Assembly: GCA_021152595.1 (NCBI GenBank)
Contig: JAGKVC010000001.1
Span: 7,380 to 71,379, forward strand
Origin: Clostridia bacterium
GTDB taxonomy: Bacteria > Bacillota > Clostridia > Oscillospirales > Ruminococcaceae
Reading direction: 5' to 3'
Length of the DNA: 64,000 bases
Each line of letters starts with the position of its first letter. Within the stretch, counting starts at the first letter, position 1. The position numbers and the translations under genes are program-made. The notes under the pieces are model-generated. The model ran no database searches and had not been told where the DNA came from. It worked only from the letters and a program-made list of their open reading frames with translations. Positions 58,533-59,387 of this stretch are shown here, piece after piece.

Positions 58533-59387
58533 TTAGCCTCTTAGGATTTTCATCAATAACAAATTGAATATTTCTTTTCCGTCTCCGCTGATCGGAAGCA
58601 AATTCAGCAGCTGCACACTTAATCCAATCGAGAAAAACAGACAAAAAATATTATGAAAACACGGAACGCCGCACAAATACAGAATGATTCCGGCAATTCC
58701 GATTAAACCGCTGATTCCGCCGCCGCAAATTTTCGTAAGAAATGTCTCATTGAAAATCTTTCGGACAAACATAAGCGTTAATCCCTTCTTTACCATAAAA
58801 CCGCCTTTCGGTTCTTTTCTTCGGTAAAGAAGAACATGGGTTGTTTCATGCAGAACAGTACCGATCAGTGCTCCTAAGAGAAATGAAAATACAATTCCTA
58901 TAATCCGGAATGCAAACGCAGCCGGAAGTCCGGCCAGAACTGCCGCGGCGGAAATAATGAGCGGCAGCAGCAGTGCAACAGCCGCAGCCCCGCTGAACAT
59001 TTTTCCAACAATTAAAAGTTCATGCGCAAAAACCAAAAATGGAGATTCCGAATTGATGTCTATTCTTTTGTAGTATTTTTCTGCAAGGAACAGAGAGCGC
59101 AGTACGCCTGATATTCCGGGCTGAATACAGTTCACCAAATACTGTGAATTACTCGTAAGGATAAACTCCCGGACATCATTGGAAACCTCGGCTTTTTCAT
59201 CTTCGGCGACTTCACAATCTGCACAAATCTTTTCTGTGATTTGCCCAATATTGTTTGTTCCGTCACAGTATTCAAGGATTTTTTCAGAGATCGGGTTAAG
59301 CTGGTAGGAACGGTCTGTCTTATGATCATAGACTGAGCCGCTTCGTACTTCAACATTTTGACAAATTTGCGGGATGATATTGTTCAT
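58533..59387 (-). CDS. Fusion of a PqqD-like RiPP recognition element (RRE) to an M50 (site-2 protease) intramembrane metalloprotease
   Basis: The N-terminus YQLNPISEKILEYCDGTNNIGQITEKICADCEV..EVSNDVREFIL follows the PqqD pattern. The membrane domain carries HETTHVLL (HExxH) and LLNLLPISGDGKEIF (NxxPxxxxDG). Confidence 0.8.
   Translation of the reverse strand: MNNIIPQICQNVEVRSGSVYDHKTDRSYQLNPISEKILEYCDGTNNIGQITEKICADCEVAEDEKAEVSNDVREFILTSNSQYLVNCIQPGISGVLRSLFLAEKYYKRIDINSESPFLVFAHELLIVGKMFSGAAAVALLLPLIISAAAVLAGLPAAFAFRIIGIVFSFLLGALIGTVLHETTHVLLYRRKEPKGGFMVKKGLTLMFVRKIFNETFLTKICGGGISGLIGIAGIILYLCGVPCFHNIFCLFFSIGLSVQLLNLLPISGDGKEIFNLLLMKILRG

What the first reader, a model, noticed from the sequence alone, without database searches (positions are those of the whole stretch)
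58533..59387. PqqD-type RiPP recognition element fused directly to an M50 site-2 protease
Residues ~15-90 follow the PqqD/RRE pattern (LN-x5-I-x3-CDG-x5-I..., acidic helix, DV-x-FI). The rest is a polytopic membrane domain with both M50 signatures, HETTHVLL (HExxH) and NLLPISGDG (NxxPxxxxDG).

RREs are normally stand-alone or fused to soluble tailoring enzymes. Fusion to an intramembrane-cleaving protease implies leader-guided regulated intramembrane proteolysis. That would be an unusual leader-peptidase solution. It also explains why the adjacent peptides contain a TM helix.
Basis: partly seen in the sequence, partly recalled or inferred. Interest (0 to 1): 0.75.

Follow-up and report, generated by a model that had tools for sequence, protein, structure and literature searches.

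The report
RRE-fused site-2 protease peptide operon
The gene does encode a peptide-recognition (PqqD/RRE) domain fused to a small membrane-embedded zinc protease, next to two bacteriocin-like precursor peptides; daptide gene clusters already have this fusion, but this family and its peptides are uncharacterised.

Summary
ORF 58533-59387(-) encodes 284 aa. Residues ~1-90 are a PqqD/RRE domain: Pfam scores 29.9 bits against a cutoff of 23.4, and the fold matches the lasso RRE TbiB1. Residues ~116-284 are a minimal 4-TM site-2-protease (M50-like) domain. HExxH (H180/E181/H184) and NLLPxxGDG (D269) are invariant across 32 relatives. A family profile hits M. jannaschii S2P at E 5.9e-12.

The fusion is a conserved family of about 35 clusters at 50% identity. 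It occurs in Bacillus paralicheniformis/haynesii, Enterococcus hirae, Lachnotalea, Halobacillus and gut metagenomes.

Every locus read has the same core:
- a 65-80 aa precursor
- a DrrA-type ABC ATPase
- a ~490 aa permease
- the RRE-S2P
- a ~95 aa 2-TM protein, with or without anchored thioredoxins

The precursors share a lasso-like N-terminal YxxPx[M/V/I/L/F] motif. A hydrophobic helix starts 18-24 residues later. Two Cys lie 24 residues apart.

The most likely function is RRE-guided intramembrane removal of the leader from a bacteriocin-like peptide. This is inferred, not shown.

The architecture is not unprecedented. Daptide clusters were discovered through an RRE fused N-terminally to an S2P (DapP/MpaP). 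This family has no daptide tailoring enzymes and a different precursor type, so I rate it a new variant of a known kind.

The parts
58533..59387 (-). RRE-S2P fusion protein, 284 aa (the finding)
   Evidence: ORF. Family alignment. AF2 with the family alignment gives pLDDT 93.3 and pTM 0.87.
59118..59387 (-). N-terminal PqqD-type RRE domain (aa 1-90), predicted cytoplasmic
   Evidence: Pfam PF05402 scores 29.9 bits, above the 23.4 cutoff, and 31 of 32 relatives hit it. PDB profile hits are PqqD, TbiB1 and TfuB1. Foldseek gives TbiB1 TM(target) 0.76-0.78.
58533..59042 (-). Minimal 4-TM site-2-protease-like (M50 clan) membrane domain (aa 116-284)
   Evidence: Profile against 3b4r gives E 5.9e-12. 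hhalign against a SpoIVFB-like protein gives 95.5%. Helices 116-151, 156-191, 216-238 and 247-263, plus a beta-hairpin at 197-208.
58836..58850 (-). HETTH = HExxH zinc-binding/catalytic motif (H180, E181, H184)
   Evidence: Invariant in 32 of 32 relatives. Translation checked.
58578..58604 (-). NLLPISGDG = NxxPxxxxDG motif with the third zinc ligand D269
   Evidence: D269 is invariant; L263, P265 and G270 are at least 90% conserved. It aligns to NLIPaFPMDG of MjS2P.
58259..58477 (-). Precursor peptide A, 72 aa (MAYQKPTM...KIGCI). The listed ORF extends to 58498, but the family and the RBS favour this start.
   Evidence: AGGAGG lies 5 nt upstream. Other gene callers give 72 aa. Family alignment.
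57955..58173 (-). Precursor peptide B, 72 aa (MKYQKPTM...KFGCM)
   Evidence: AAGGAGG lies upstream. It is 60% identical to peptide A.
56842..57597 (-). ABC transporter ATPase, DrrA/galliderm type
   Evidence: PF00005 and TIGR01188 at E 3.8e-47. Adjacent in all loci read. These are the same subfamilies listed for daptide DapT.
55398..56885 (-). ~490 aa polytopic permease partner, an unnamed family
   Evidence: Conserved next to the ATPase in all loci where the region is on the contig. Alignment A3. No Pfam, NCBIfam or PDB hit.
55062..55358 (-). 98 aa two-TM protein, either an immunity protein or a protease accessory subunit
   Evidence: Conserved after the RRE-S2P or after the permease in most loci. 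It is fused to the C-terminus of the RRE-S2P in P0034 (hmmsearch E 6.5e-8).
54568..55065 (-). Membrane-anchored or secreted thioredoxin-fold protein (CEKC)
   Evidence: PF13462 at E 6.6e-10. Thioredoxin_4/PedC-like genes occupy the same position in L002, L003, L004, L010 and L018.
54138..54584 (-). Second anchored thioredoxin/glutaredoxin-like protein (CESC)
   Evidence: PF05768 at 28.8 bits, above the cutoff of 26. Thioredoxin-family hits.
59409..60560 (-). NifS-like cysteine desulfurase in the same operon, specific to this lineage
   Evidence: PF00266 at E 3.7e-74. TIGR03402 at 464.5 bits, below the 530.75 cutoff. Found only in the window-type loci L001 and L013-L017.
60586..62185 (-). 110 aa ORF (60586-60918) and 418 aa membrane protein with an N-terminal CxxC thioredoxin-like part (60929-62185), at the start of the operon and specific to this lineage
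   Evidence: ORFs. No significant Pfam, NCBIfam or PDB hit.
62253..62281 (-). Probable operon promoter, TTGACA-17-TATAAT with an extended-10 TG
   Evidence: 12 of 12 consensus positions match. This is a pattern match only.
53607..54128 (-). Last gene of the operon: 173 aa membrane protein with only the N-terminal domain of prepilin peptidase A24
   Evidence: PF06750 at 28.3 bits, above the cutoff of 23.

Best explanation
The ORF encodes the dedicated leader peptidase of a bacteriocin-like peptide operon.

**Shown here**
- It is a two-domain protein: a cytoplasmic PqqD-type RRE joined to a minimal four-helix site-2-protease domain. All catalytic residues are present.
- The fusion is a conserved family.
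- The family always sits beside a sharply defined precursor family. Each precursor has YxxPx[M/V/I/L/F] at residues ~3-8, an acidic stretch, and a ~23-residue hydrophobic helix that begins with W-(Y/F)-V-V-A 18-24 residues after the Tyr. A Cys ends the helix, a ~24-residue tail follows, and a second Cys is penultimate.
- The same operon carries a DrrA-type ABC ATPase, a ~490 aa permease, a ~95 aa two-TM protein and often anchored thioredoxin/PedC-like proteins.

**Inferred**
1. The RRE binds the N-terminal YxxPxΦ motif as a beta-strand, as lasso B1 proteins bind YxxPxL.
2. This holds the hydrophobic helix in the S2P cleft.
3. The zinc site, near the cytoplasmic face, cuts at or just inside the N-terminal end of the helix, about 17-22 residues after the Tyr. 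No prior site-1 cut is needed because the tail beyond the helix is only ~25 residues.
4. The ABC transporter exports the ~50 aa core or extracts it from the membrane.
5. The extracytoplasmic thioredoxins close the Cys47-Cys71 disulfide.
6. The 98 aa protein gives self-immunity or acts as a protease subunit.
For: **Domains.** Pfam PqqD is above its cutoff. 31 of 32 relatives hit PqqD. The family profile hits MjS2P at E 5.9e-12 and solved RREs at 6e-9 to 4e-5. hhalign to a SpoIVFB-like M50 protein gives 95.5%. The AF2 model has pLDDT 93.3, and its N-domain superposes on the TbiB1-leader complexes with TM(target) 0.76-0.78.

**Catalytic residues.** They are invariant at 18-30% overall identity.

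**Topology.** K+R per loop is 6.1 / 0.09 / 6.2 / 0.19 / 4.6.

**Conserved neighbourhood.** The same gene set appears in about 15 independent loci from Clostridia and Bacilli. The E. hirae 299 aa neighbour is a full-length member (hhalign 99.7%).

**Precursors.** Y3, P6, C47 and C71 are invariant in the 12-sequence alignment. YxxPxΦ is in 28 of 34 peptides. Y-to-W spacing is 18-24 with median 19, and Cys-Cys spacing has median 24.

**Precedents.**
- The lasso leader motif YxxPxL spans -17 to -12 (PMC10368454).
- Daptide MpaP is described as an RRE-dependent intramembrane peptidase that removes the leader from hydrophobic helical peptides, and it sits next to the same ABC subfamilies (PMC10036551).
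- PedC-like thioredoxins, typical bacteriocin accessory proteins, occur in L003, L004 and L018.
- An agr-type quorum-sensing cassette is adjacent in Halobacillus.

**Other support.** The small protein is naturally fused to the protease in P0034. P0074, at 51 aa, looks like a leaderless version that starts at the helix.
Against: - No cleavage, binding or product has been observed for any member.
- The window protein alone is below Pfam's M50 and DUF3267 cutoffs.
- Foldseek similarity of the membrane domain to 3b4r is weak (E 1.3, TM 0.31-0.39).
- Peptide flank charges do not clearly favour the N-in/C-out insertion that classical S2P substrates have. The N-flank is acidic, and KGK often follows the helix. 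The substrate may therefore enter from the cytoplasm without first inserting.
- Six of 34 family peptides lack YxxP, and I could not read their loci.
- The role of the NifS-like enzyme and other lineage-specific genes in this window is unexplained. There could be a tailoring step I have not recognised.
Confidence: 0.6

Rival explanations
1. The peptides are resident membrane proteins, and the system is a signalling or regulatory intramembrane-proteolysis device. The relevant product would be the released N-terminal ~20-mer, as a pheromone or cytoplasmic signal like the Eep-processed enterococcal pheromones, not the helix-plus-loop part.
For: S2Ps classically act in signalling. The helix looks like a genuine TM anchor. 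The Halobacillus locus adjoins an agr cassette, and an ABC exporter could export a pheromone.
Against: Apart from YxxP, conservation is concentrated in the helix start, the two Cys and the C-terminal tail. Anchored thioredoxin/PedC-like genes point to a functional disulfide in the C-terminal part. Paralogous precursor pairs (the window and L008) and a small 2-TM protein are typical of bacteriocin loci. No regulator is consistently linked.
Confidence: 0.15
2. The RRE mainly serves a tailoring or chaperone step. It would hand the precursor to the NifS-like enzyme, the thioredoxin system or the ABC transporter. The M50-like domain would act as an immunity or scaffold module, as CPBP/Abi membrane proteases do in some bacteriocin loci, and not as the leader peptidase.
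For: In this window a cysteine desulfurase sits 21 nt upstream in the same operon, and both precursors carry an extra Cys15. NCBI annotates relatives as 'PqqD family peptide modification chaperone'.
Against: NifS, the 110 aa ORF and the 418 aa gene are absent from all other family loci, and the minimal operons (L005, L006, L020) have no enzyme other than the RRE-S2P. Invariant HExxH and Asp argue for catalysis. No other peptidase is encoded in the operons.
Confidence: 0.12
3. It is a daptide-type system, so the protein is simply a DapP orthologue.
For: It has the same domain order (an N-terminal RRE followed by the S2P) and the same ABC ATPase subfamilies, TIGR01188 and TIGR03740. Bacillota DapP proteins have a 'shorter protease domain'.
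Against: None of the loci read has DapB, DapC (PF00465/PF13561), DapD (PF00202) or a methyltransferase. The precursors lack ELExMEAP and the invariant C-terminal Thr; they end C-x. An exhaustive phmmer returned only 39 hits, nearly all of this family, although 483 daptide BGCs are known.
Confidence: 0.05
4. The motifs are fortuitous and the C-terminal half is just a hydrophobic membrane anchor for a PqqD protein.
For: Pfam M50 scores only E 0.12 for the single sequence. Foldseek is weak for the membrane part.
Against: Both motifs are invariant across 32 divergent relatives. Profile hits are 5.9e-12 and 1.3e-8, with the motifs in register.
Confidence: 0.02

Closest known systems
DapP / MpaP, the RRE-S2P fusion peptidase of daptide biosynthetic gene clusters (Ren et al., Nat Commun 2023, PMC10036551)
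   Same: Both have an N-terminal RRE fused to an intramembrane site-2 protease. Both are encoded beside multiple short precursors that have a conserved N-terminal leader motif and a hydrophobic helical core. Both are followed by DrrA/galliderm-type ABC transporter genes. DapP is proposed to be an RRE-dependent leader peptidase.
   Different: This family is shorter: 284 aa here, against ~530 aa for an actinobacterial DapP. Most members fall below the PF02163 threshold. There are no DapB/C/D/M genes. The leader motif is YxxPxΦ, not ELExMEAP. The core ends in a Cys-bounded loop and has no C-terminal Thr. Thioredoxin/PedC-like genes and a ~95 aa 2-TM protein are linked. I could not run a direct sequence comparison with DapP.
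Lasso peptide B1 (RRE) plus B2 leader peptidase, e.g. TbiB1 and TfuB1/FusE
   Same: The RRE fold is closest to TbiB1 and TfuB1 among solved RRE-peptide complexes. The precursor motif YxxPx[MVILF] mirrors the lasso YxxPxL. The RRE serves a leader peptidase, not a tailoring enzyme. The spacing from Tyr to the presumed cleavage region, 18-24 residues, resembles the lasso -17.
   Different: The protease is a membrane zinc S2P, not a soluble transglutaminase-like Cys protease. There is no lasso cyclase. The core is a TM-like helix plus a disulfide loop.
EpeP (YydH) of the epipeptide operon, and TglG/TmoG of pearlin pathways: membrane M50 proteases in RiPP maturation (review PMC10885120)
   Same: A membrane-bound M50 protease is encoded with a short precursor and an ABC transporter.
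   Different: The review does not report an RRE fusion for these enzymes. Those pathways depend on radical-SAM or other tailoring enzymes, which are absent here.
Canonical site-2 proteases (M. jannaschii S2P 3b4r, SpoIVFB, RseP)
   Same: HExxH and NxxPxxxxDG lie in separate TM helices near the cytoplasmic face, there is a beta-hairpin after the HExxH helix, and a GP-containing third helix aligns.
   Different: Only four TM helices are present. There is no PDZ or CBS domain, and an RRE takes the place of a substrate-selection domain. No site-1 protease is evident.
Class IIa (pediocin-like) bacteriocin loci with a PedC accessory thioredoxin
   Same: An unmodified peptide whose only evident modification is a disulfide, a dedicated anchored thioredoxin/PedC-like protein, a small membrane immunity-like protein and an ABC exporter.
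   Different: There is no double-glycine leader and no C39 peptidase domain on the transporter. Leader removal appears to be done by the RRE-S2P.

Membership tests
PqqD-type RiPP recognition element (PF05402) | Sequence match to the PqqD profile above the curated threshold | tested here: met
   29.9 bits against 23.4, residues 20-76. 31 of 32 relatives match, best E 2.7e-13.
PqqD-type RiPP recognition element (PF05402) | Winged-helix fold (three-stranded sheet plus three helices) superposable on solved RREs | tested here: met
   In the AF2 model, residues 10-90 have pLDDT 95-98. Foldseek gives TbiB1 TM(target) 0.76-0.78 at rmsd 2.2 A, and TfuB1 0.70. E-values are modest (0.02-0.1) because the domain is short.
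PqqD-type RiPP recognition element (PF05402) | Co-encoded precursor with a conserved leader recognition motif | tested here: met
   YxxPx[MVILF] is in 28 of 34 family peptides and in every locus with an RRE-S2P that I read.
PqqD-type RiPP recognition element (PF05402) | Physical binding of the leader peptide | not testable with these tools
   This needs a binding assay or complex modelling.
Peptidase M50 / site-2 protease | HExxH within a transmembrane helix | tested here: met
   H180, E181 and H184 are invariant and lie at the end of helix 156-191.
Peptidase M50 / site-2 protease | Second motif NxxPxxxxDG, with the Asp as third zinc ligand, in a later TM helix | tested here: met
   NLLPISGDG at residues 262-270. 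D269 is invariant. It aligns with the MjS2P motif.
Peptidase M50 / site-2 protease | Pfam PF02163 match above the gathering score | tested here: not met
   12.2 bits against 27.2 for the window protein. Only 4 of 32 relatives reach E<0.1. DUF3267 ('putative zincin peptidase') is also below its cutoff.
Peptidase M50 / site-2 protease | Profile-level homology to a solved or annotated S2P | tested here: met
   3b4r at E 5.9e-12 over 155 residues. hhalign to a SpoIVFB-like protein gives 95.5%, E 1.3e-8.
Peptidase M50 / site-2 protease | Fold similarity of the membrane core to a solved S2P | tested here: inconclusive
   Foldseek 3b4r_B: E 1.3, TM 0.31/0.39, 192 columns.
Peptidase M50 / site-2 protease | Zinc-dependent intramembrane proteolysis | not testable with these tools
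   Needs biochemistry.
Daptide pathway (DapP) | RRE N-terminal to the S2P domain | tested here: met
Daptide pathway (DapP) | Co-occurrence with DapB (DUF-RRE), DapC oxidoreductase, DapD class-III aminotransferase and DapM methyltransferase | tested here: not met
   None is present in the window or in L002-L012 and L018-L021. The window's PLP enzyme is a class-V NifS-like desulfurase, not PF00202.
Daptide pathway (DapP) | [quoted passage not shown] | tested here: not met
   The leaders carry YxxPxΦ and the C-termini are G-C-x.
Daptide pathway (DapP) | Sequence membership in the DapP clade or the Bacill_DapP_RRE model | not tested
Lasso peptide system | B2 transglutaminase-like protease and an Asn-synthetase-like cyclase | tested here: not met
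   No such ORFs are in the operon.
Class II bacteriocin with a double-glycine leader | GG-type leader and a C39 peptidase domain on the ABC exporter | tested here: not met
   There is no GG cleavage motif. The ATPase is 251 aa with only ABC_tran, and the permease has no Pfam hit.

The most novel reading that the evidence does not exclude
This operon family defines a new class of bacteriocin-like peptide in Bacillota. The precursor is captured at its extreme N-terminus by an RRE. It is matured only by intramembrane cleavage in a minimal four-helix S2P and by an extracytoplasmic disulfide. That would be RRE-guided processing without any tailoring enzyme. The released product would be a ~50 aa 'TM helix plus Cys-stapled loop' peptide exported by a dedicated ABC transporter. 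In the Ruminococcus-like lineage of this window, a co-operonic cysteine desulfurase and extra redox proteins would add a further sulfur-based modification.
Probability: 0.4. Interest if true: 0.7.

Novelty: new variant of a known kind. Interest (0 to 1): 0.55.

Why it matters
How an RRE directs an intramembrane protease is proposed for daptides. In the papers I could read, it has not been dissected biochemically.

This family offers a much simpler test system. The minimal operon has five genes and no tailoring enzymes. The protease is only ~290 aa. The leader motif sits at residues 3-8. Members occur in culturable, genetically tractable hosts: Bacillus paralicheniformis/haynesii and Enterococcus hirae/faecium.

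It also points to an unrecognised and fairly widespread family of probable antimicrobial or membrane-active peptides. They occur in gut and food-associated Bacillota and are annotated today only as 'hypothetical' or 'PqqD family protein'. I found no family-specific model or name for the peptide family.

Tried and rejected
**Searches and models that gave nothing usable**
- Single-sequence AF2 gave an unusable model (pLDDT 51.5). I replaced it with the alignment-based model.
- The word-indexed protein search with the single sequence found only itself. With alignment A1 it added only one family member and three weak M50 hits.
- phmmer of the single protein against the PDB gave nothing.
- The search for related loci with the 32-sequence alignment failed for lack of a conserved stretch. 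A 10-sequence subset found only two Lachnotalea loci.
- tblastn against plasmids gave no match.
- The permease profile and the 418 aa protein gave no PDB hits.
- The 357-nt gap between peptide B and the ABC gene has no significant RNA structure (z -0.55) and no terminator-like site.

**Literature**
- 'PqqD' plus 'site-2 protease' returned nothing.
- 'PqqD' plus 'M50' returned only irrelevant papers.
- Papers mentioning 'RRE-containing' together with paralicheniformis do not describe this cluster.
- Hominicin, a daptide, uses a subtilisin and not an RRE-S2P, so it is not a useful precedent.

**Readings considered and rejected**
- Lasso system: no B2 protease or cyclase.
- Daptide system: no Dap enzymes and no C-terminal Thr.
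- Double-glycine class II bacteriocin: no GG leader and no C39 domain.
- Chance motifs: they are invariant across the family.

**Weak result**
- The C-terminal extension of P0022 matches the small 2-TM protein only weakly (domain E 0.27). P0034 matches clearly.
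Full report
**1. The observation**

The minus-strand ORF 58533-59387 is intact and encodes 284 aa.
- The PqqD-like pattern LN-x5-I-x3-CDG-x5-QI and DV-x-FI lies in residues 30-76.
- HETTH is residues 180-184 (nt 58836-58850).
- NLLPISGDG is residues 262-270 (nt 58578-58604).

Taken alone, the protein hits Pfam PqqD above the curated cutoff (29.9 against 23.4 bits). It is only sub-threshold for Peptidase_M50 (12.2 bits, E 0.12) and for DUF3267 'putative zincin peptidase' (15.9 bits). 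NCBIfam gives weak PqqD-family hits, including the lasso PqqD chaperone model. So the N-terminal call was solid from the start, and the protease call needed more evidence.

**2. The family**

The word-indexed search found only the protein itself. An exhaustive HMMER scan of 1.84 billion representatives returned 39 hits. About 35 of them are 282-311 aa and align end to end, so the two-domain architecture is a conserved family.

In the 32-sequence alignment, at 18-30% identity to the query, these residues are invariant: D21, D71, R108, H180, E181, H184, G222 and D269. P6, I50, L263, P265 and G270 are at least 90% conserved.

The family profile gives these hits:
- M. jannaschii site-2 protease 3b4r at E 5.9e-12 over 155 residues. 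HExxH, the GP-containing third helix and NxxPxxxxDG are all in register.
- Independently, PqqD 3g2b (6e-9), PqqCD (1.4e-8), TbiB1 (3.3e-5) and TfuB1 (3.8e-5).
- By hhalign, a SpoIVFB-annotated M50 protein at 95.5% probability, E 1.3e-8.

With the family alignment, AF2 gives pLDDT 93.3 and pTM 0.87. The single-sequence model was useless. By Foldseek, the N-domain superposes on the TbiB1-leader complexes with TM(target) 0.76-0.78. The membrane domain matches 3b4r only weakly (E 1.3).

Membership in Pfam M50 by its own threshold is not met, so I call the domain S2P-like and a member of the M50 clan.

**3. Topology**

The model has helices at 116-151, 156-191 (HExxH at its end), 216-238 and 247-263 (followed by the DG motif). 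A beta-hairpin lies at 197-208. This is the S2P core plus one leading helix.

| Segment | Mean K+R across 32 relatives |
|---|---|
| before TM1 | 6.1 |
| TM1-TM2 loop | 0.09 |
| TM2-TM3 loop | 6.2 |
| TM3-TM4 loop | 0.19 |
| C-terminal tail | 4.6 |

By the positive-inside rule, the RRE, the hairpin loop and both catalytic motifs face the cytoplasm.

**4. Genomic context**

I read the neighbourhoods of 12 family proteins or peptides, plus two loci found by pattern search. All share one core:
- one or two 65-80 aa precursors
- an ABC ATPase of ~250 aa
- a ~490 aa polytopic permease with no Pfam or PDB match
- the RRE-S2P
- a ~95 aa two-TM protein

Anchored Thioredoxin_4 or PedC-like proteins are frequent additions.

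Hosts include Halobacillus sp., Shouchella lonarensis, Staphylospora marina, Lachnotalea glycerini, Bacillus paralicheniformis/haynesii and Enterococcus hirae/faecium. The Bacillus peptide is listed in 845 blocks of the collection index and the E. hirae peptide in 398. Database names are 'hypothetical protein', 'PqqD family protein', 'PqqD family peptide modification chaperone' or 'metallopeptidase'.

The E. hirae 299 aa neighbour has no Pfam PqqD hit. It is nevertheless a full-length member (hhalign 99.7%).

In P0034 the ~95 aa protein is fused to the C-terminus of the RRE-S2P (E 6.5e-8). This argues for a physical or functional partnership.

In Halobacillus, an agrBDCA-like cassette sits immediately upstream.

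**5. The precursors**

Strong Shine-Dalgarno sequences and the family alignment put the true starts at MAYQKPTM (58477) and MKYQKPTM (58173). Both window peptides are then 72 aa.

Features across 34 family peptides:
- YxxPx[M/V/I/L/F] sits 2-5 residues after the initiator Met in most of them. It is present in 28 of 34.
- The conserved Trp that opens the hydrophobic helix follows the Tyr by 18-24 residues (median 19).
- A Cys closes the helix.
- A second Cys, usually penultimate, follows 24 residues later.

The motif is the same as the lasso leader motif YxxPxL, which occupies positions -17 to -12 and is read by B1 RREs (PMC10368454). Those B1 proteins are also the closest structural matches of this RRE.

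One 51 aa relative, P0074, starts directly at the helix, as a leaderless version would. Five others lack YxxP, and their loci could not be read.

**6. Mechanism**

Shown here are the domain identity, the catalytic residues, the topology prediction, the conserved operon and the conserved leader motif.

The following steps are inferred:
1. The cytoplasmic RRE captures the YxxPxΦ N-terminus.
2. The hydrophobic helix is presented to the S2P cleft and cut near its cytoplasmic (N-terminal) end.
3. The DrrA-type ABC transporter exports or extracts the ~50 aa core.
4. The anchored thioredoxins form the Cys47-Cys71 disulfide outside the cell.
5. The 98 aa protein confers immunity or is a protease subunit.

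The tail beyond the helix is only ~25 residues, and there is no PDZ or CBS domain. From what is known of RseP-type S2Ps, which need a short ectodomain stub, no site-1 cleavage or 'regulation' need be invoked. This last point is an inference from established knowledge.

One unresolved point concerns substrate orientation. The peptide's N-flank is acidic, and KGK commonly follows the helix. The charge bias therefore does not clearly predict the N-in/C-out orientation of classical S2P substrates. The substrate may instead be handed over from the cytoplasm, as pro-sigma-K is to SpoIVFB.

**7. Comparison with what is known**

The daptide class was discovered from 'RRE domains ... [quoted passage not shown] Daptide clusters also carry ABC transporters of the same TIGR01188/TIGR03740 subfamilies as the ATPase here. 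M50 proteases without a reported RRE act in epipeptide and pearlin maturation (PMC10885120).

This family is nevertheless not a daptide system:
- No DapB, DapC, DapD or DapM gene occurs in any locus.
- The leaders are YxxPxΦ, not ELExMEAP.
- The cores end in G-C-x, not Thr.
- The protein is about half the size of an actinobacterial DapP.
- The exhaustive single-sequence search returned essentially only this family, although 483 daptide BGCs are known.

I could not compare directly with DapP sequences. I found no paper describing this operon or peptide family.

**8. This window's version**

The operon lies in a low-GC island (0.38-0.43, against 0.50-0.58 elsewhere) that begins right after lysA. 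The host is a Ruminococcus/Oscillospiraceae-like gut bacterium.

The operon appears to run from a perfect sigma-70 consensus at 62281-62253 down to 53607. It carries extras seen in no other family locus:
- a 418 aa membrane protein with a CxxC motif
- a 110 aa ORF
- a NifS-like cysteine desulfurase directly upstream of the RRE-S2P
- two anchored thioredoxins
- a protein with only the N-terminal domain of prepilin peptidase A24

Both precursors here also carry an extra Cys15. Whether this reflects an additional sulfur-based modification is open.

**9. Verdict**

This is a previously uncharacterised and fairly widespread variant of the known RRE-S2P leader-peptidase theme. It is coupled to a new precursor family and, in its minimal form, to no tailoring enzyme at all. 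I rate it a new variant of a known kind, with interest 0.55.

Noticed in passing
window 53500-64000: There is a low-GC island (0.38-0.43, against 0.50-0.58 in the rest of the window). It starts immediately after lysA (52177-53451) and contains the whole peptide operon, which suggests horizontal acquisition. The right-hand boundary lies beyond the window.
   Followed up: partly
window 59409-60560 (-): A NifS-like cysteine desulfurase sits 21 nt upstream of the RRE-S2P in the same operon (TIGR03402 at 464 bits, below its cutoff). It is absent from all other family loci. Both window precursors carry an extra Cys15. A sulfur-related modification is possible but unsupported.
   Followed up: partly
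window 60586-62185 (-): A 418 aa polytopic protein with an N-terminal CxxC thioredoxin-like segment and a 110 aa ORF sit at the head of the operon. Neither has a significant Pfam, NCBIfam or PDB match.
   Followed up: partly
window 53607-54128 (-): A 173 aa membrane protein carries only the N-terminal Cys-rich domain of prepilin peptidase A24 (PF06750, 28.3 bits) and no evident A24 catalytic domain. It is the last gene of the operon and is also present in L001.
   Followed up: partly
window 62253-62281 (-), 63870-63898 (-), 62587-62615 (+): There are three perfect 12/12 sigma-70 consensus promoters. The first lies just upstream of the 418 aa gene and is the likely operon promoter.
   Followed up: no
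window 46879-50940 (+): A 1353 aa ORF reads as carbamoyl-phosphate synthase large subunit continuing in frame into a DapF-like (diaminopimelate epimerase) C-terminal domain. It sits next to LL-DAP aminotransferase and lysA. It may be a real fusion or an assembly or frame artefact.
   Followed up: no
window 63515-63898 (-): A 127 aa ORF has a sub-threshold LytTR DNA-binding hit (E 0.002). It could be a remnant or fragment of a quorum-sensing regulator, like the agr cassette next to the Halobacillus locus (L002 4497-7266).
   Followed up: partly
P0034 (L008 8001-9182) and P0022 (L007 3825-4994): These ~390 aa versions of the RRE-S2P carry the ~95 aa two-TM protein as a C-terminal fusion. The match is clear for P0034 (E 6.5e-8) and weak for P0022.
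   Followed up: yes
P0069-P0074 (peptide relatives, loci not read): Six peptides of the family lack the YxxP motif. P0074 (51 aa) begins directly at the hydrophobic helix, like a leaderless variant. P0070 and P0071 have long alternative N-termini.
   Followed up: no
L018/L019 9067-10542 (Enterococcus hirae): The ~490 aa permease appears split into two ORFs (159-162 aa and 297-311 aa) in E. hirae. This could be a frameshift or a genuine two-gene arrangement.
   Followed up: no
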